A stretch of 63,505 bases of DNA, the filler included, from Kipferlia bialata (lineage: Eukaryota): assembly GCA_003568945.1 (NCBI GenBank). It is 6 parts of 6 records of this genome, joined end to end, with 100 filler letters (N's around TTAATTAATTAA, not from the genome) between each part and the next. Parts side by side here need not be neighbours in the genome. Positions count along the whole stretch, not along the records: positions 48,345 to 60,320 come from BDIP01001151.1; 5 more parts are not named here. The stretch is one strand, 5' to 3'. The notes beneath the pieces were generated by a model. That model was given only the letters and a program-made list of their open reading frames with translations. It had not been told where the DNA came from and made no database searches. Position 1 is the first letter of the stretch. Every line of letters begins with the position of its first letter. A program made the position numbers and the translations under genes. Positions 11,995 through 60,436 of the stretch are shown here, in pieces.

Positions 11995-12094
11995 NNNNNN
12001 NNNNNNNNNNNNNNNNNNNNNNNNNNNNNNNNNNNNNNTTAATTAATTAANNNNNNNNNNNNNNNNNNNNNNNNNNNNNNNNNNNNNNNNNNNN
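11995..12094. other. Artificial contig linker (N-run with TTAATTAATTAA)
   Basis: 100-bp block with stops in all six frames. Identical linkers at 24086-24185, 36168-36267, 48245-48344 and 60321-60420. Confidence 0.97.
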
Positions 12095-48979: not shown

Positions 48980-51462
48980 CACCTGTACCTGCACCTTGCG
49001 AGGGAGTTTCTTACGCTCAAGACCCCACCCCCTGGGCATTAACTGACAGAACACGCATACATACAGGGGAACATGTGTACAAATACCACACACATATGCA
49101 AACCAAGTACGATTACGACACCGGTATAGCAAACTCGGAGGGTGGTATACAACTGATACACACCTGAGGAGTACATATACGTAGGAGACACTGATACTGA
49201 CACTGATACCTGAGGAGGACTGATATGGTGAGGCTTGGTATGCAGTCTGGGAGCACATAACACAGCGGAATGTACAGGGGGCGGGGGAGGTAGTTGCCTG
49301 GGCATGAGGTCCAAACTGACTGATACTATAAGGTCCATACTGACTGATAACATGGGGATGGGGCACATACAGAACATACATCAGCATCGGTATCAGGTGG
49401 CGACACTAACATACACAATACTTCACCAGAACCCGCCTTTGAACCTGCTCTTCACACCAATTACAGGCAATGTACATATAGCAAGCTATACAAATATATG
49501 TACCTCAGTACGCTGTGTGTACCTGTGAGTGGCCTGTGTGCAAACCCAAATGCCCTACACAGGGAACAGACGGCACCGACACTGGATGCAATGCCTAGAG
49601 GTCAGTGCCCATGGAAGGATGGACATACGTATATGTATATATATGGATATACATATACATATGTGGCAGGTACTGACACTGAAATACTGCACCATGCAGC
49701 ACACCTATACACTCATACCTATGTACATAGACACATTCCTATACACTCATACTAATTCACATATACACATACCTATACACTCATACCTCTATACATAGAC
49801 ACCACCTATATACTCACACCTATAGGCATATATACCCATACCTACGTGGAGTGACAGGTTGTGCATCTCTGGGGATGCCTTGAAGGACATGGCCTGCCTG
49901 AAGACATCAGGGGGGAGGGGTATACATACTAGTATACATATACAGATATAGAGATATCCAGACACCTCAGCTCCCGTATCATGTGGAGACCCCCCAGTGC
50001 AAAGAGCAGGGATATGAACACCCCTGCCAGGGCCATGAAGATTGTGTTGAACTCATAGAAGGGATGGCCCTCCCGCTCATCGGGCTCCTGAGAGTGGGAG
50101 GACACACCCACCCACACACAAACTCATATATACACATGATATGACATGAATGGGTAGGTAATAGCCAAGTGGGTTCCACGCCGAGGGCAAACAGGACATA
50201 TAGACATATAGGTTACTCACCACAATACCATAGTATACTAGAGTATCAGAATAATAATACATACAGACACTGTCACTGCCACTGATAGCATATAGAGTAT
50301 CAGTCTGAGCATGGTATCAGTATAAGTCTATCAGTCTTTCAGTCTATCAGTGTGTCTACCTGGAACGAGTACCACACTATGATGGCCAGGACCCCACCCA
50401 CCACAGCAGCAGAGGTCCAGGTCACAATGTGGAAGGAGAGGGGGCGGCGGGAGGAGTACTTGCTGCTAACCAGGAAGCACCTGACAATTGAGTATATATT
50501 AGGGGGAATACTCTATGGGATGTCCATTAGTGGCAATAGAGTACTGGTCACTGGAATGACAGGAAGAGAATGTACACTGATCATATGACACATGGCAAAT
50601 GACATATGATCAATGAGCCTGTCACAGCATATATTGTGCACATATAATGGCTGTCATCATGCACCTGTTGCATGACCTATATCCATAGTGTTATGTCCAT
50701 ATGGACTATGCACGCACCTGTTGCAGTACAGGCTGAAGGACAGGAGCAGTATTATATACAATGTATACAATATCATGTAGTATCAGTATTAACTGTCATG
50801 TACCTGTTGCAGTACAGGCTGAAGGATAGGAGCAGAGCAGCCATGGATATCCTGGGTCAGTAGGGCACATGCCTAGAAGGGGGTGGGGAGGGGTGGGGCG
50901 AAAGAGTGATAGGAAATAGATTGAGACTCAATCCTTGAGTGGGACTCAGAGAGGTAGGGAGGGGTAGGGAGAGGGATGGATGCCCATATCCACAGGAGAG
51001 ATGTAGGCTCCACCCGTTACCTGATACCAACACATCAGATGGGGAATACATCGTGCAATACCTGTTGATGGCAAAGTCGAAGTGGGTGTCGTCGATGTAT
51101 CTCCGTGCCACGACCCACCCTATGCGGCACAGGTGGCCCAGGCAGGCCAACAGAAGGGTGGCGGTGTCCCTGGGATCAGGAGGGGAGATATTCTGGCATG
51201 GATATCGAGCAAGGACCAAAGGCTGAATAGGGAGAGAGAACAGCCATATACATGTGGTCAACACCAATAGGTGACATGAAAGTATATCATGTACTACACC
51301 GATGGGGGGCAGAAACAAAGCATGGATAGTTGCAGAATATACCCACCTCGGTGTTGCCCTCCGGGACTGGTGGAGCCTCACACACACATATGCTGCCACC
51401 ACCAGTGCCACGCCCTCGACCCCACACCCGAGACCCACCTCCAGGGGATACAGCACGCCCAT
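48980..51462 (-). CDS. THH1/TOM1/TOM3 (GPR137-like) seven-transmembrane protein
   Basis: Seven hydrophobic segments. Motifs HLCRIGW, FAINR, EREGHPFYEFNTIFMALAGVFISLLFALGG, CSLCRAFGFAHRPLTG and LCYVLPDCIPSL. 3' end approximate. Confidence 0.65.
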
Positions 51463-51919
51463 GTCGACCTGGGGTCAGATATACACACTATACATACTGT
51501 CAGTGGAGACATAGACAACAGTGTCGAGGAGGGAGAACCATATGAATACTACAGACAAAGGCACTTGTTGGCAACTATGCATATCTGACTTACACTCTCA
51601 ATGACACTTCTCTGGGAGTTACAACCACCCCACGGTCTGGTAACCGTCGAACAATAACTCTATTAGTAATTCAACCCCAACCTAAGGATTGGACTCAGTG
51701 AGTCCACAGATCCGCGGAGTCTAGAGGAACAGGGACAGTATTTGACTAGAAACATGTCTTAGAGTTCTAAGACTTAGACATGACACATGAGAACCCTTTT
51801 TTCGTTTTTAGAACTGTCTCAGCTGACTCAGTCTGAGGACCTCTCCAGTCAAGGTTTGTGAACTCTAGGCGTGGAGATCATAGTGGTGATTCTACAAATC
51901 TATCTGTAGCCCCTAGACA

Positions 51920-52869
51920 ATGTATACTTCACATGGGTCACAAGGCGTGGGGGCTGAATCTAGAGAACAGATTGTACTGGGTCAGGAAGCTTTTGCTGAG
52001 ACCACCCGCAGCCATATCCGCAGCCAGCTGGACACCACCTCAAGGATTGAGGCCAGCCGCCTGCAGGACCGTTATCGTAGTGTTCAGGATCTAGAGAGGG
52101 AAATGATGCATAGGTCAGTATGGGTGTGTCCTTCCATCTCAATGCTACTGGCCGTTTGGAGTTATTACGGTTTGAGTCGCGACGCCAAGGATGTGTATTT
52201 ACCGACATGCATGTGTGTGTCTCTCCACTCTTGGGGATATCTCTGTATATAAGCATTCTGCCGAATGTATTGTTCACTCTTTCTGACCTGGATGTCTCTT
52301 GTTACTGCAGGTGCACGTACGTGGTACTGATAACAAGTCTGTGATATCAGTGACCAGGTCACTTCATAGGTTGTCATGTGTGTATCTAACCTTACTCACC
52401 ATCAGGCAGGAGGCCGCCATTGTCGAGGACTTCGATGACTATGTGGATGAGTCCTACAACGTGAGGTCCATACCCATTGAGCCTCTGCGGCTGACAGACT
52501 ACTCTACAGATGAGGGGTACCTGCCCGAGGAGAGGTACGCGAGTGTGTATGTGTGGGTGTATGGACGTATGTATTGTCTCTGTGATGGTGGGTGTACGTG
52601 ATTGGTATGAATGGTTTGCCCGAGTACCCACGCCAGGGAGGATGATATGCTGGAGAGAGAGAGGGAGAGGGAGAGGGAGGACATCCTGCTGTGCCGCCAG
52701 GCAGAGTCTCTGTCGCGGCTGAGGAGTGAGTTCAGCCAAGAGATGGAGGCAGCCCAGGGGATACCCCTGCCAGAGCACGAGACAGAGAGTGACACTGAGA
52801 GGGAGAGGGAGACCGAGACAGTGCCCGAGGGCATGGGGAGGGAGCTGTTGGTCATGGCAATTGAGCTAG
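51920..52869 (+). CDS. Acidic coiled-coil N-terminal region, possibly the start of the MIB-HERC2 gene across the N gap
   Basis: ATG at 51920 and spliced exons (…LEREMMHR, EAAIVEDFDDYVDESY…, …LLVMAIEL|). Ends at the 52934-53865 N gap. Confidence 0.55.
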
Positions 52870-53966
52870 GTATTGGCGCATATGTATGTACCCCCCCCCC
52901 CCCCCCCCCCCCCCTCCTGCGGGGGGGGGGCGCNNNNNNNNNNNNNNNNNNNNNNNNNNNNNNNNNNNNNNNNNNNNNNNNNNNNNNNNNNNNNNNNNNN
53001 NNNNNNNNNNNNNNNNNNNNNNNNNNNNNNNNNNNNNNNNNNNNNNNNNNNNNNNNNNNNNNNNNNNNNNNNNNNNNNNNNNNNNNNNNNNNNNNNNNNN
53101 NNNNNNNNNNNNNNNNNNNNNNNNNNNNNNNNNNNNNNNNNNNNNNNNNNNNNNNNNNNNNNNNNNNNNNNNNNNNNNNNNNNNNNNNNNNNNNNNNNNN
53201 NNNNNNNNNNNNNNNNNNNNNNNNNNNNNNNNNNNNNNNNNNNNNNNNNNNNNNNNNNNNNNNNNNNNNNNNNNNNNNNNNNNNNNNNNNNNNNNNNNNN
53301 NNNNNNNNNNNNNNNNNNNNNNNNNNNNNNNNNNNNNNNNNNNNNNNNNNNNNNNNNNNNNNNNNNNNNNNNNNNNNNNNNNNNNNNNNNNNNNNNNNNN
53401 NNNNNNNNNNNNNNNNNNNNNNNNNNNNNNNNNNNNNNNNNNNNNNNNNNNNNNNNNNNNNNNNNNNNNNNNNNNNNNNNNNNNNNNNNNNNNNNNNNNN
53501 NNNNNNNNNNNNNNNNNNNNNNNNNNNNNNNNNNNNNNNNNNNNNNNNNNNNNNNNNNNNNNNNNNNNNNNNNNNNNNNNNNNNNNNNNNNNNNNNNNNN
53601 NNNNNNNNNNNNNNNNNNNNNNNNNNNNNNNNNNNNNNNNNNNNNNNNNNNNNNNNNNNNNNNNNNNNNNNNNNNNNNNNNNNNNNNNNNNNNNNNNNNN
53701 NNNNNNNNNNNNNNNNNNNNNNNNNNNNNNNNNNNNNNNNNNNNNNNNNNNNNNNNNNNNNNNNNNNNNNNNNNNNNNNNNNNNNNNNNNNNNNNNNNNN
53801 NNNNNNNNNNNNNNNNNNNNNNNNNNNNNNNNNNNNNNNNNNNNNNNNNNNNNNNNNNNNNNNNNATATAATTGTATATGTTCCCTTATTTGTATATGTG
53901 GATCCGCTATCTCCCCCCCCCCCCCCACCCCCCTCGTTCCCTCATCCCCAACTGATTAATGCACAG

Positions 53967-56900
53967 GAAAGCTACACCCTGGTAGCGAGGTGATCAGGGG
54001 TAGGGACTGGGAGTGGGGCAACCAGGTGGGTGTATGTCTACATGCTGTAGACAACTACGCTGTCTCTTGTGGGGCAACGTGGTATATGTATATGTGCCAT
54101 ATAATTAACTATATATATTATACTATGTATAGTATATAGCATATAATATATACATACTAGATGACAGTGCAGTAGGAGAGTAAGACAACCATCTATTTTC
54201 CCCCCCATACCCACAGTATAGATTTATACACTAATATATATAGATACACCCAGATAGCTTTGACCTCGCCTTCCTCTCTGTGAACCTCTGTCCCTCTGTC
54301 CTCCCCTGTCTACCCATCTCTATCCCATTTCTCCCTCTTTCTAACACCATTCCTGCCTATATATAGATGAGGATAGTAGGGCAGGGAGGGGGGGGGGGGG
54401 GGACTTTGAGAGAGAGATAAGAAGAAGAAAACCTACAGTCATCTACTCACCTGATACTGACACTGATACTGATGCCAGGATGGAGGAGACGGTTGCAGAG
54501 GCACCCTGCTAGGCCCCCACAAGGGCGAGGGGTGGGTGGTGGTCCATTGGCACGAGACAGGTACCCCCCCCCCCTCTCTCTCTACTATTCTCATTCACAC
54601 ACTTTCATCGGACACCTATTCATATATGAATATTTCTGGTCAGTCTGATGGGACATTATTGTACATTGTAGATGGTGACTGTTTGTAACTACATCTCTGT
54701 CTCTCTTTCTATGTGTGTTGACACAGGCGAGCGTGAGGTGTACCGTGCCGGTGCCCATGCACTGTATGACCTTCTCTACGTACCAGGCAGGATTGAAACA
54801 ACCACTCCCTTACAGTCCAGTACCTCTCAGACGGTATCCAGGTGCATATATACAAGATACATATATATGCCCCGCATGTGCCATTGACCCCTGTCCACGT
54901 GTATTACCACCCAAAGGGCTCTCCACCTATTCCCTGAGCATTCCTATCTGTATACCCCCCAGTCTGTTATTGACTCTCAGTATCAGTATCTATATAATGG
55001 TAATACTGATACTGACTCTCAAGGCCCCCTCCCGAAGGAGCTGTGCACGCCGGTGGGTCCTGCAGACGTGGTGCCTCTGTGTCCAGGGGTAGGGACTGGC
55101 GGTGGGAGGACCAGGTATATATGTATGGATATGGGTACACTCTCCACACCAGGGTGGGGTTGTATGGGATTTCTGTTTGTTTGCTATCCTCACCTCATAT
55201 ATATATATATACAAATATATTTGTACACATGTATATATACACATGAGTATTGGAACATGCCCCCCTGACCAATAGGACGGCCATGGCCTGGGTGTGCTCC
55301 TGGACAACGTAGCCTCTGCCCCAGGGTGGGTCAAGGTCACATGGGGCAACGGACTGACCAACCACTACAGAGCAGGTGGGTGATTCTGTGTCTTGCAGTA
55401 TGTGTCATTCACTATACTATGGTCTTCAAGTATATTTGGTTTACCTTCCCTTCTTCCTGGATTTCCAGATTGTCTCAGAGTTCGTAGTCCCCGCCCAGGC
55501 TGGGCCCCAGCCATCATCTTGCCTTAAATGTTCCCTCTCCCCTTCACCCCCAGGTGCTGACGGGGCCTTCGACCTCCAGTATGCAGTGAGTGACAGGAGA
55601 ACTGGTACGTCCCTCTCTCTGACACTGTATATGCATAATGTTTGCACATCAATATATATGCATAGTAAAATATGTATAATCAGCAATGCTCAGGATCGAT
55701 TGCATTAACAGACCCATTATCAGTTCATTGTCATTGCGTGTATTCTCACTAACTAGCAGGGACGCCTATGTACCGGCGTATGGACACTCGTACTCCAGCA
55801 TCACTTGTATCTTCCCCTGTCTTGGACCTTGTCCCTGACTACGTCCCCACTCCCATAGAGTTCCTGCCTACCCAAGCCGCAGAGGAGTCTTCCTTCTCTG
55901 ACTCAGACCCTTTCATCAGAGCTCCCATGCCCCCTTCTTTCGGAGAGATGTATCCCCCTGTCCCCCAGAGGAGAGACAGAGAGATAGATTGGGACAAGGC
56001 TGTGCCACTTATAAGTGAGGTGGGTATTGGCTAGATCTATACATATGTCTTCACTCGTTTCATACGTTACTGCTTCACCCTCCTGCTACTCATTTCAGAC
56101 ATCCCCCGTTCAGTCAACCCCCGTCAAGGCACCGAGCGCTCCAGCAGGTTAGTATCAGCTAGATGCAGTATCCTCTTCTTTGCGTGGGGTATTCAATATG
56201 ATGTCATATAATGTCTTTGCATGTCTTTCCATGTCTTACCCATGTCTTACCCATGTCTTACCCTGTCTTACCCTGTCTTACCCTGTCTTACCACCAGGCC
56301 AGACCAAGCTGGAGAAGGCTGCGTCCTCCAAGGTGGCAGGCCTCCTGTCGATATTTGTGCCCCTAGTGGACAAGGTGGGTAGATATACACATTCATATAC
56401 ATACGTAGTACCTCTAGGATATGTATGCAAGCGCTGACCACAGCTCTGCACCCCTATCAAGAACGGGGAGAGCACCAAGGACGCCGCCAGGGAGCTACTG
56501 GAGAGGGTGCAGTACAGTGAGGTATTGTCTAGTATTGTCTAGTCAGTACGTCCAACAAGACAATACGCTATTTCACCATTAGGAGACACTCAAAATCGTG
56601 CAAAACCTCGTGGAAGCCAATGAAGAGTACGAGAAGGTGTGCGGAAAGAGTCTGAAGAAGGTAACACGACTGAGAAGGAACAATCTACCATGTATACCCC
56701 CTTTCGTCTCGGTTCCAATTCACAGGCCAACAGTGTACTCAACGAGGTCTATGCAACTGTCAGAGACTTCAACAGCAAGGGCGCTCTGGGACACGTGCTT
56801 AAGAGCAGTGACTTCCAGGTGAGACGTTACTGATACATTGATCTCTACTCCTCCCAATGCCATCACTATGATCTTCACTAGCCAAGTATGATATTGGTAG

Positions 56901-57383
56901 CTGTGTGGCCATATATCTGCGTTCCCGCATCTGTCCCACTCCCCCGTAACCACTAATCCTTAGGACAAGCTGACGCCTCTCAACACATCCTTCGCTGATG
57001 CCATCGTGGCAGTCACATGCTCACTCACTGCTGTAAGGGCGGTCCAGGCCAACGAGGTATGGGAGGGTGGCACTCATTGGCAATTACACTACTCACTCAT
57101 TGGTCCTTGTGCTTTTTGACTCATCCCAGGACCGTGTGAACCGTGCCAAGATGATGGAGAACCAGCATGTGATCATGAAGGTACCTTGATTGGATCATAT
57201 TTGTATATTTCACTATATATACTACTATATATTGCAGGGTCACCTCGTCTCTTGTTGCTAGAAAGTGAATATCCTCGAACCTATTGATATTGATTTGACA
57301 TGCAGCAACTATCTCACCTCGACATCGGAAACTGCGAGAGCAACAAGGTCATAGATCACACCGCAACCCCACTCATGGTATAG
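53967..57383 (+). CDS. Protein with two tandem MIB/HERC2 domains and a C-terminal MLKL-N-terminal-like four-helix bundle
   Basis: GSEVIRGRDWEWGNQ|DGGDGCRGTL...GWVVVHWHET|GEREVYRAGAHALYDL and GASVSRGRDWRWEDQ|DGHGLG...GWVKVTWGNGLTNHYRA|GADGAFDL. Then STKDAARELLERVQ...SLKK|ANSVLNEVYATVRDFNSKGALGHVLKSSDFQ|DKLTPLNTSF. Probable stop TAG at 57381-57383. Confidence 0.8.
56218..56292 (+). repeat. Intronic 10-11 bp minisatellite (c[a/c]tgtcttacc)n
   Basis: About seven tandem units immediately before the acceptor at 56297. Confidence 0.85.
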
Positions 57384-57753: not shown

Positions 57754-59370
57754 TCACACCCTCTTGAGCACCACTACCATGGAGTCCTCAGGCTCAAACT
57801 CCTCATACCGATGCATAGAGACAACGGTAAACAGACCCTTGATGGCAGTGGCCAGGGTCTCCTCGGTGTGGTACTGGTGGAGGAGGGTGCCTGGGGTGAG
57901 ACGGTGTATGTCGATGTATATATAGAATACACTACTTACATATGTATATATATATATGGTACTGGTGCAGGAGGTTGCCTGGGGTAAGGGTATTGTATAT
58001 ACATACACACACATATATATATATGTATAATTATATACTATGTACATATATATACTACTATTATACTGATGAATGAGGATACCTCAGTGAGTCGGTCTGA
58101 TATACACATAGTGATATGCGTTGGTAGGTGGGATATTTAGATACACACACACACAGTGTCACTCTAACCTATGAGAATAATAACGCTATGTATATAGGAC
58201 TAGATCCCGACATGTGAACAGAGTATATATGTCTACACTATATTCACACATACTATCAGCACCAGTATCCACCAGAACTACATCCACCCACCACTGACCA
58301 TTATACACAATATACTGTATATACACATCCCCCCACCTGTCATCATTGAGTCTGTCCCATACCACAGGGAGTGGCACGCAAGGCCCCCCTCCTAGAGGTC
58401 AGGGAGAGGAGTGTGTAAAGGGTAAAAACAGACTCTAAACTATATGTACTGGCTCAGTACTATAGCGACACGGCCACCCTTCTAGGCAATAGGAGAGAGG
58501 ACTACACGAGAGTTGAATGTGTGACGTCAGAGTAGAATCAAATATACCTTGAGCAGCCTGTGCTGTGACTGGAAGGACGCCCTGAAGGAGGGGAAGTCCA
58601 GGTGCTGAAGGACCTTAGGGTGAGAGGGGTGTGTGTATATGACGGAATGTAGAATCTGTACACAAAACTCGTTGCCACAAACCTTGTTTGAGAAAACGAC
58701 GTCTCTAGAGGCAGGAGGCAGGTTTATATCAGATGCATCCACGGTGACAGCAGAGAGGCCTAGGGACTGGAGGCGCTTGACAAAGAGAGAGGAGTGGTCT
58801 GAGTGTAAGAGAGTGGGAGAGAGAGGGGGATAGGAAGGGGCAGACAAGAGGGTTAAGCTGAAACAGAGAGTATTCTGTAACTGTATTGGTGTGTGAAGGA
58901 ATGGGGGAGGGGGGGGGGGGGAGAGAGAGAGAGAGAGAGACAGACAGACTCAGAGACGTAAAGAAACAAGATTCGGTGTGACCATCATTCAGGTACAGGT
59001 CAGTATTGTAGGCATATTACCAACCAAACAGATCAGCATAAGGACTCATATATAGGATGGCTTAGAGGCAGGGAATGCCAGTGACGGAGGGCCAAACGTC
59101 TAATAATAGTATAGCAACTGTGATATATACTTGTGTATGCACCACACACCCACCTGAGAGGAGTGTGTCCTTGAAGAAGCTGCTGAGGTACTTGCCGTCT
59201 GTGCCGGGTCCAGACCCCAGCTCCAGCACACTACTGGCAGCTGTGTCCACTCCCTGCACCTTGCACTCAGAGACCAGGGTGTCTACCAGGTGGTACCCGT
59301 CACAGCCCTCACAGGAGGCAATGTACTTGTCCACGTTGGTCTGGTCCTCGAAGAATGGGGTGGGGGTCAT
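57754..59370 (-). CDS. Class I SAM-dependent methyltransferase (5 exons)
   Basis: ATG at 59370. Motif I VLELGSGPG, then LS|DHS, VDASD, DVVFSNK|VLQHL, LLK|EGGLACHSLW and YEEFEPEDSMVVVLKRV*. Confidence 0.9.
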
Positions 59371-59533
59371 TGTATCCAGAGTTAAGTGTATTAGGAATGG
59401 TGGGTGGAGACTCTCCACTGGAGAGGCAATGGATTTCCTAGACCCTCACAATCAAAAAGACGATTGGAGTACGGCCCACTCAGAGTGGGCCTCTTAATGG
59501 TCTATTGAACATGAGCTGTCTCTCGCTCTGCCC

Positions 59534-60295
59534 ATGATATCAGAGCCAGATGTGAACCTCATCAGTATAGTGTGGATGTGCGTGGCTGTGGTGGTGTTGC
59601 TGCTGCTGCTGAGTGGCATCAGCGCCCCCTATGGCAGATACACCCCCTCCTCCTGGTCACTCAATCTGCCTAACAGGACAGGGTGGGTGCTGATGGAGCT
59701 ACCCTCTCTCTTGATCATGGCCGTAGCAGCCGGGGGGTGGGTCAGGGGGGTGTACCCTCTGATGCTGGCTGGGGTGTGGATACTCCACTACACATATAGG
59801 TGTGTGTGACAGGTGTTGGTAAAGTGTTGGTGTCTCTCTACTGTTTTACCCCTCTCTCACCCAAGGGCTCTTGTATTCCCCTTCCGCCTCCGCACCTCTG
59901 GGAAGCGCATGCCCCTCATCCTAGCCCTGGGGTCTATACTGTTCAACGCAGTCAATGCCACACTGAATGGGTACTACCTGGCATTCTATCAGCCAGACAC
60001 CACCCTTGTATCAATCAGAGTGCTCCTGGGCCTTGGTGTAGTGGCCACAGGTACATACACCCACATAGTGAGTGACTCATACCTCATGTCCCTGAGGCAG
60101 CCTGGGGACACTGGCTACAGCATACCCACCCACCCCATGTTCAAGTATGTGTCATGCCCAAACTACGCGGGAGAGATGTTGGTGTGGGTGGGGTACAGCA
60201 TACTGGCTCTCTCCCTGCCTGCTCTGTCATTCCTAGTGTGGACAATGGCCAACCTGGTACCCAGGGCTAGGCAACACCACAGGTGGTATAGGGAG
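59534..60295 (+). CDS. SRD5A: 3-oxo-5-alpha-steroid 4-dehydrogenase (SRD5A/DET2 family), last exon missing
   Basis: APYGRY, GWVLMELPS, HYTYR|ALVFP, SDSYLMSLR.PGDTGYSIP, FKYVSCPNYAGE and ANLVPRARQHHRWY. Intron at 59800-59865. Confidence 0.93.
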
Positions 60296-60436
60296 GTATG
60301 TCATCCCCCCCCCCCCCCTANNNNNNNNNNNNNNNNNNNNNNNNNNNNNNNNNNNNNNNNNNNNTTAATTAATTAANNNNNNNNNNNNNNNNNNNNNNNN
60401 NNNNNNNNNNNNNNNNNNNNATCCACCCCCCCGCAA

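What the first reader, a model, noticed from the sequence alone, without database searches (positions are those of the whole stretch)
53967..57383. MIB-HERC2 x2 fused to a C-terminal MLKL-like four-helix bundle: candidate cell-death or membrane-permeabilising switch
Exons 56298-57056 encode LLSIFVPLVDKLCTPIKNGESTKDAARELLERVQYSEETLKIVQ...SLKKANSVLNEVYATVRDFNSKGALGHVLKSSDFQDKLTPLNTSFADAI. This follows the MLKL_NTD/MCAfunc/RPW8-type pattern (K..x..L.ERV...L..L; L...L.E....V..F..K..L..L....F..KL..LN). Established: this fold is the membrane-disrupting executioner of necroptosis and normally sits N-terminal to a kinase or NLR. Here it is C-terminal to two peptide-binding MIB/HERC2 domains and a Pro/Ser-rich linker, which suggests release by cleavage or ligand gating in a protist immunity or death pathway.
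Basis: partly seen in the sequence, partly recalled or inferred. Interest (0 to 1): 0.8.

Follow-up and report, generated by a model that had tools for sequence, protein, structure and literature searches.

The report
Back-to-front MLKL-like protein in Kipferlia
A spliced gene of the free-living flagellate Kipferlia places a helical domain of the family that includes the cell-killing protein MLKL at the tail of a protein, behind small binding domains, where it likely cannot kill unless cut free and so likely serves as an adaptor; its function is untested.

Summary
Fifteen exons (53967-57383, +) give one open 450-codon frame, the C-terminal part of Kipferlia bialata KIPB_005072. One RNA-like contig splices 14 of 14 introns exactly, so both parts share a transcript. 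Two MIB/HERC2 domains are clear (E 8.7e-28). The C-terminal domain alone just passes Pfam's MLKL_N cut-off (27.2 vs 27 bits, E 3.1e-6), and its Atlas neighbours are MLKL-like (0.93-0.94). The fold test was inconclusive: the model is weak (pLDDT 51), matches generic four-helix bundles, and MLKL is not listed. No homologue of the bundle was found. New here: the annotated N-terminus is not supported. The transcript has 646 further 5' bases hidden in an assembly gap, likely holding a third MIB/HERC2 repeat. N-terminal fusions silence MLKL killing but keep membrane recruitment (PMC9709077), so the intact protein is more likely a non-lytic adaptor (0.45) than a cleavage-released killer (0.25). This is a new arrangement of known domains in an orphan gene.

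The parts
52934..53865 (.). Assembly gap (932 N) that likely hides the real 5' exons: 646 nt of the transcript, likely with a third MIB/HERC2 repeat
   Evidence: N run; record 2 position 647 = window 53962; loose end before 55356; depth arithmetic
53967..54841 (+). Exons 1-3 (53967-54025, 54479-54560, 54727-54841): MIB/HERC2 repeat A (P0001 191-251) and spacer
55024..55604 (+). Exons 4-6 (55024-55114, 55276-55375, 55554-55604): MIB/HERC2 repeat B (P0001 about 287-345)
   Evidence: (HECTD1 Mib/Herc2 structures 3dkm and 2dk3, E about 3e-11)
55760..56147 (+). Exons 7-8 (55760-56019, 56099-56147): Pro/Ser/Thr-rich linker, about 105 aa (P+S+T 0.36, net charge -5)
   Evidence: no secondary structure over most of it in the model
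56298..57056 (+). Exons 9-13: MLKL_N-like helical bundle (P0001 about 458-590). Helix 1 (467-485) is the most hydrophobic 19-mer of the protein and is amphipathic
57130..57383 (+). Exons 14-15 (57130-57180, 57306-57383): brace-like helices and short tail to the stop codon; no kinase domain follows
51920..52869 (+). Three upstream exons that the public annotation joins to this gene (acidic helical 186 aa). They lie on a separate RNA contig, and the annotated splice across the gap is not supported
   Evidence: location; record 1, 796 nt

Best explanation
The gene encodes an array of MIB/HERC2 barrels (two seen, a third likely), a Pro/Ser-rich linker and a C-terminal MLKL-family helical bundle, and the intact protein likely works as a non-lytic adaptor whose barrels would bind partner peptides while the bundle would cluster the complex and may bring it to a membrane. 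Shown: the gene, its splicing, the two barrels, the profile match of the bundle and its C-terminal position. Inferred: peptide binding (from Mib1, whose MZM region binds the Notch-ligand N-box), oligomerisation and membrane contact (from MLKL), and lack of killing (helix 1 is capped by at least 280 residues, and capped MLKL still reaches the membrane but does not kill). It would be a natural counterpart of the engineered non-killing cargo-MLKL recruiter.
For: One ORF and one spliced contig. MIB_HERC2 E 8.7e-28; repeat A keeps all 10 columns invariant among 12 aligned sequences. MLKL_N 27.2 bits, E 3.1e-6, plus DUF7792 E 0.008. Atlas features 0.94/0.93/0.93 with 187-203 of 256 shared, neighbours MLKL_N/MCAfunc/RPW8 clusters. 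The model has a short helix between the third and fourth long helices, a feature described for human and plant MLKL (10.1101/2021.05.03.442385). EGFP or an 8-residue peptide fused N-terminally blocks MLKL killing while light-driven membrane recruitment stays (PMC9709077, section 10). HET-S/HELL killing depends on the extreme N-terminal helix (PMC12881547). N-terminally extended fungal MLKL-likes are of open function (10.1101/2022.03.16.484565). No Met lies within 40 residues before helix 1 (nearest M415), and no RNA covers intron 8. The bundle is not basic (net -1).
Against: Helix 1 is still strongly hydrophobic and amphipathic (mean hydropathy 1.65, moment 1.5), as expected of a pore-forming helix. 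The blocking data come from human MLKL with tags next to helix 1, whereas here a roughly 105-residue flexible linker intervenes and may leave helix 1 free. A FLAG tag only attenuated killing. No partner, oligomer or membrane binding was tested. The fold was not confirmed as MLKL-like. Up to about 215 hidden N-terminal codons could hold a domain that changes the reading. No homologue exists to test conservation.
Confidence: 0.45

Rival explanations
1. Latent executioner released by proteolysis. The barrels recruit a protease or bind a foreign protein, the unstructured linker is cut near helix 1, and the freed bundle oligomerises and permeabilises a membrane: the reverse order of a gasdermin.
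For: Intact hydrophobic, amphipathic helix 1. Bundle followed by brace-like helices, the unit that suffices for toxicity in plant MLKLs (10.1101/681015). Long exposed linker. Sea-cucumber MLKL is activated by caspase removal of 17 N-terminal residues (PMC11932488).
Against: No recognisable site next to helix 1: the only caspase-like xxxD motifs in the scanned span lie at 375 and 427, 40 or more residues upstream, so a long leader would remain. No protease partner among the neighbours checked. No necroptosis regulators were found in 67 protists in an earlier sequence search (PMC7539657). No homologues conserve a site.
Confidence: 0.25
2. Ligand-gated switch without cleavage. The MIB/HERC2 barrels fold back onto the bundle and hold it shut until an outside peptide competes them off. 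A candidate internal ligand is the Ile-Lys-Asn at residues 485-487, which recalls the Asn-centred N-box that Mib1 binds.
For: The Delta N-box begins with the same three residues and its Asn is essential (PMC11887331). The linker is long enough for fold-back. MLKLs are held shut intramolecularly.
Against: A three-residue match is common by chance, and Lys-Asn after helix 1 is also a recalled MLKL-family feature. Mib1 binds the N-box with a barrel-ZZ-barrel unit, and no ZZ finger is present here. Helix 1 would remain tethered after release.
Confidence: 0.1
3. The C-terminal domain is a generic four-helix bundle (a FAT- or vinculin-tail-like interaction module) whose match to MLKL_N is convergent or too eroded to keep any MLKL-like activity.
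Against: Two methods, a profile HMM and language-model features, point to the same superfamily; 10 of the 10 best Atlas hits with a family share a family or clan (a third of shuffled proteins also get that). Both structure models were single-sequence or low-confidence, so the fold searches carry little weight.
Confidence: 0.17
4. Gene-model artefact: the barrels and the bundle belong to two genes.
For: Only one run, of guessed RNA type, stored as unstranded contigs; such contigs can merge neighbours, and this one probably does at its 3' end.
Against: The parts are joined by in-frame GT..AG splices on the + strand at every junction, including linker-to-bundle (14 of 14); overlap of neighbouring transcripts cannot produce that.
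Confidence: 0.03

Closest known systems
Animal MLKL and plant MLKLs (AtMLKL1-3); Pfam MLKL_N PF22215
   Same: Profile match over positions 20-115 of 142; predicted helical bundle followed by brace-like helices; hydrophobic amphipathic helix 1.
   Different: The bundle is C-terminal, not N-terminal. No pseudokinase follows; the protein ends about 45 residues after the matched stretch. The bundle is not basic. No pairwise sequence match to any solved MLKL.
Fungal HeLo-like / basidiomycete MLKL-like (BaMLKL) / Goodbye-like domains, oomycete stand-alone MLKL_N clusters, plant MCAfunc and RPW8
   Same: Nearest Atlas clusters; often near or under the Pfam threshold, and some are N-terminally extended with open function.
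   Different: Those sit at or near the N-terminus of NLRs or kinases, or stand alone. None of the Atlas rows listed carries both MIB_HERC2 and MLKL_N. No NACHT/NB-ARC domain in the visible part.
Mind bomb 1/2 MZM region and HECTD1 Mib/Herc2 domain (PDB 4xi6, 3dkm, 2dk3)
   Same: Two MIB/HERC2 barrels with the conserved Trp/Gly/Tyr-Arg-x-Gly pattern.
   Different: No ZZ finger between the barrels, no SH3_15 repeats, ankyrin, RING or HECT domain in the visible part; a third barrel is likely.
Apostichopus japonicus MLKL (cleavage-activated; PMC11932488)
   Same: An N-terminal extension sits before the bundle; a model for the cleavage rival.
   Different: Its extension is 17 residues with a caspase-1 site next to the bundle, and it keeps a kinase-like domain; here the extension is at least 280 residues with folded domains and no adjacent site.
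Engineered non-killing EGFP- or SsrA-MLKL(1-140) membrane recruiters (PMC9709077)
   Same: Cargo placed N-terminal to an MLKL bundle plus brace.
   Different: Synthetic, human, and oligomerised by light; here natural, with an unknown trigger.

Membership tests
MLKL proper (bundle-brace-pseudokinase) | Four-helix-bundle domain matching MLKL_N | tested here: met
   27.2 bits vs cut-off 27, E 3.1e-6 on residues 457-636; 24 bits on the whole protein
MLKL proper (bundle-brace-pseudokinase) | Bundle at the N-terminus | tested here: not met
   At least 280 residues are spliced in frame upstream of helix 1
MLKL proper (bundle-brace-pseudokinase) | C-terminal (pseudo)kinase domain | tested here: not met
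   Stop at 57381-57383 inside the RNA-covered last exon; no kinase family in Pfam
MLKL_N / HeLo-like / RPW8 superfamily | Profile or feature-level similarity to the superfamily | tested here: met
MLKL_N / HeLo-like / RPW8 superfamily | MLKL-type bundle fold with brace helices | tested here: inconclusive
MLKL_N / HeLo-like / RPW8 superfamily | Hydrophobic amphipathic first helix | tested here: met
   467-485 is the most hydrophobic 19-mer of 636 residues (1.65), moment about 1.5
MLKL_N / HeLo-like / RPW8 superfamily | Oligomerisation and membrane permeabilisation | not testable with these tools
   Needs cell-death and liposome assays
MIB/HERC2 domain (PF06701) | Profile match above the curated cut-off with conserved Trp/Gly core | tested here: met
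   96.5 bits vs 33.5, 2 stretches; alignment; PDB matches
Mind bomb / HECTD1 / HERC2 E3 ligases | ZZ finger between the barrels (MZM) | tested here: not met
   No ZZ hit; the about 35-residue spacer is Ser/Thr/Pro-rich
Mind bomb / HECTD1 / HERC2 E3 ligases | RING or HECT catalytic domain | tested here: inconclusive
   None in the visible 636 residues, but 646 nt of 5' transcript are unseen
All-in-one NLR with MLKL-like head | NACHT or NB-ARC domain C-terminal to the bundle | tested here: not met
   The protein ends after the bundle and brace

The most novel reading that the evidence does not exclude
A reversed-order lytic switch in a metamonad: an array of MIB/HERC2 barrels senses or recruits a partner, the linker is cut, and a C-terminal MLKL-like bundle is released to permeabilise membranes. 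This would be a kinase-free, NLR-free MLKL system with a folded N-terminal cap, in an anaerobic flagellate lineage where no necroptosis-type effector was reported in the papers searched.
Probability: 0.25. Interest if true: 0.8.

Novelty: new variant of a known kind. Interest (0 to 1): 0.48.

Why it matters
In the systems read here, MLKL/HeLo/RPW8 bundles sit at or near the N-terminus because their first helix must be free. A natural, spliced protein with the bundle at the C-terminus tests that rule directly. If the free bundle kills and the full-length protein does not, it is a new activation logic and evidence for lytic death machinery in Metamonada, where an earlier survey of protists found no necroptosis regulators (PMC7539657). 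If neither kills, it is a clean natural case of the fold reused as an adaptor, which would caution against reading 'cell death' from every MLKL_N hit in protists. Either result needs only two constructs. The weight is limited because the protein is an orphan from one genome.

Tried and rejected
No whole genome is held, so paralogues could not be counted. Homologue searches for the bundle found only the protein itself: 1 of 1032 candidates at 349-1113 aa, E <= 1; 0 of 110 candidates under 349 aa, E <= 10; 1 hit among 1.84 billion representatives, E <= 0.001; cluster of 1. Proteins over 1113 aa were covered only. With no alignment, both structure models were single-sequence and weak (pLDDT 41 and 51). 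MLKL was not among the rows listed by Foldseek on PDB, VIA wide (top 50 of 48,161 chains) or BFVD; this neither supports nor excludes the family. Sequence search of PDB with the bundle gave only weak unrelated hits (best E 0.17). NCBIfam and PADLOC: 0 families. Metagenome scan: 12 MIB/HERC2 loci; tblastn of the bundle against all 12 gave a best E of 0.45. That locus, L011, is MIB/HERC2 plus LRR. Pfam on ORFs from 9 of the 12 loci showed no MLKL_N; L006, L007 and L010 were left out as near-copies, and these are exon-level ORFs. An alternative start in intron 8 (three in-frame ATGs at 56198, 56201 and 56231, open into exon 9) was set aside: no RNA cover there, and the region is a 10-11 nt tandem repeat. 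The complex prediction of barrels with bundle was not available, so fold-back binding is untested. No run on record as RNA was listed; X1 is a guess, supported by its splicing. Literature: Mib-Herc2 + MLKL 0 papers; Mib Herc2 + unicellular + domain + protists 0; Kipferlia + MLKL 1; none of 12 listed names Kipferlia; none of 15 listed names MLKL_NTD. The recalled likeness of plant U-box N-terminal domains to MLKL was not confirmed by the 10 papers listed. The Mib1-Jagged1 structure paper is not held, so ligand-contact residues were not checked.

Full report
1. The gene. The window is a concatenation of contigs separated by N-flanked linkers. Fifteen exons from 53967 to 57383 on the + strand, all bounded by GT..AG, give one open frame of 450 codons and a stop (one search was a first try with coordinates off by one). 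A search with the linker exon returned one protein among 28 candidates, P0001, 636 aa, named by its sources KIPB_005072 of Kipferlia bialata. My model equals its residues 187-636.

2. One transcript. One public run, X1, holds the stretch; it is guessed to be RNA and stored as contigs. Its record 2 (3397 nt) skips 14 of 14 introns at the modelled lengths, including those joining linker to bundle, and the length budget closes exactly. Overlap of neighbouring genes cannot produce in-frame splices, so barrels and bundle share an mRNA. Limits: one run, one study, possibly the source strain, unstranded.

3. The N-terminus is not what the annotation says. The annotation joins three acidic exons (51920-52869) to 53967 across a 932-N gap (52934-53865), an intron of about 1.1 kb against 61-453 nt for the other 14. 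In X1 those exons lie on a separate contig (record 1, 796 nt, depth 62.4), and depth there is fully explained by record 1. Record 2 reaches 53962 at its position 647; the five bases it matches before the acceptor differ from the end of the annotated upstream exon. So 646 nt of transcript lie on nothing visible, most simply in the gap. In one search only two records lie partly on the stretch; record 3 owns the loose ends at 55196 and 55228, so the loose end 'before 55356' falls to record 2. The depth of that bin equals 25.0 nt at record 2's depth against 19 expected, fitting a second short match of the same record. Read by eye, the loose letters continue in frame into exon 5's TNHYRAG and give the Val-Lys-Trp-x-Asn-Gly half of another MIB/HERC2 repeat. 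A third barrel in the hidden part is therefore likely (inferred; a paralogous transcript of depth about 75 would also fit the numbers). Whether record 1 and record 2 are one mRNA or two genes cannot be told.

4. The barrels. Pfam MIB_HERC2 scores 96.5 bits with two stretches. The PDB sequence search gives MIB1 (4xi6) and HECTD1 (3dkm, 2dk3) as its only 3 hits. Repeat A keeps all 10 columns invariant among 12 aligned sequences. There is no ZZ finger, SH3_15, ankyrin, RING or HECT domain in the visible part. Mib1's barrel-ZZ-barrel unit binds the Asn-centred N-box of Notch ligands (PMC11887331, passages); peptide binding here is an inference from that.

6. How it most likely works. In the systems read, the bundle is N-terminal and its first helix does the damage (PMC12881547 and PMC9950082, passages). 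EGFP or an 8-residue peptide placed before human MLKL(1-140) blocked killing while membrane recruitment remained; FLAG only attenuated it (PMC9709077, passages and section 10). Here at least 280 residues, with folded domains, precede helix 1. There is no nearby Met, no RNA over the in-frame ATGs of intron 8, and no caspase-like site within 40 residues of helix 1. I therefore favour a non-lytic adaptor (0.45): barrels bind partners, and the bundle plus brace clusters them and may dock on a membrane. Every functional step is inferred. Release by cleavage (0.25) has a precedent in sea-cucumber MLKL (PMC11932488, passages) and fits the intact helix 1 and exposed linker. Norovirus NS3 shows the bundle working in a non-kinase protein (10.1101/2023.03.17.533118, passages). 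Fold-back gating (0.10) rests on a three-residue likeness to the N-box and could not be modelled. A generic bundle (0.17) and a two-gene artefact (0.03) complete the set.

7. Comparison and novelty. It is not an MLKL (bundle not N-terminal, no pseudokinase), not a Mind bomb ligase (no ZZ; no ligase domain seen) and not an NLR. It is a new order of two known modules. I found no paper with both Mib-Herc2 and MLKL. The one paper naming Kipferlia and MLKL reports no necroptosis regulators in 67 protists, 'data not shown' and by sequence homology only (PMC7539657, passages; supplements not opened). No Atlas row listed carries both families, nor do the 12 metagenome MIB/HERC2 loci show the bundle, but these tests are shallow: no domain-architecture database was available. 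MLKL-like bundles as such are widespread in fungi, oomycetes and plants (10.1101/2022.03.16.484565, passages and section 21; 10.1101/681015, passages). Unchecked notes of this scan list several protist cases, one with the bundle behind a ubiquitin-like domain, and protist MIB/HERC2 heads on a caspase-fold protease and on a kinase. So the lineage and the C-terminal position are the new parts, not the domain. A listing title says an RPW8/HR protein acts as ligand of an NLR (10.1101/682807, search listing only), a further hint that the fold has non-pore uses. The neighbours examined (a likely methyltransferase, a steroid-reductase-like gene, an unidentified upstream gene) suggest no immune cluster.

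8. Verdict. Observation confirmed and extended; interpretation partly supported; new variant of a known kind; interest 0.48, or 0.8 if the cleavage-released killer (probability 0.25) is true.

Noticed in passing
window 52934-53865 and 51920-52869: The public gene model KIPB_005072 bridges an assembly gap with one splice that the RNA contigs do not support; 646 nt of transcript are missing from the model, and the acidic 186-aa N-terminus may be a separate gene.
   Followed up: partly
window 57754-59370 (-): Convergent spliced gene with a glycine-rich motif typical of class I SAM methyltransferases (recalled motif; single exons gave no Pfam hit). Its 3' end lies within the RNA contig that carries the finding's 3' UTR.
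   Followed up: partly
window 59498-60316 (+): 3-oxo-5-alpha-steroid 4-dehydrogenase family gene (Pfam Steroid_dh E 3.9e-38), divergent from the methyltransferase-like gene and cut by the contig end.
   Followed up: partly
window about 48900-51740 (-): Spliced, RNA-covered gene upstream on the minus strand (loose end at 51680) with hydrophobic stretches; 3 reading frames scanned gave no Pfam hit.
   Followed up: no
window 56148-56297: Intron 8, just before the bundle's first exon, holds a 10-11 nt tandem repeat and three in-frame ATGs open into exon 9; an alternative start here would give a nearly free bundle, but no RNA covers it.
   Followed up: partly
window 11995-12094, 24086-24185, 36168-36267, 48245-48344, 60321-60420: N-flanked 12-base linkers mark joins between separate contigs, so gene neighbourhood across them is meaningless.
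   Followed up: partly
L011:119-1018: Metagenome ORF with a hydrophobic signal-like N-terminus, a MIB/HERC2 domain and LRRs: an apparently extracellular MIB/HERC2 domain. L003:835-2889 joins MIB/HERC2 to ephrin-receptor-like Cys repeats.
   Followed up: no
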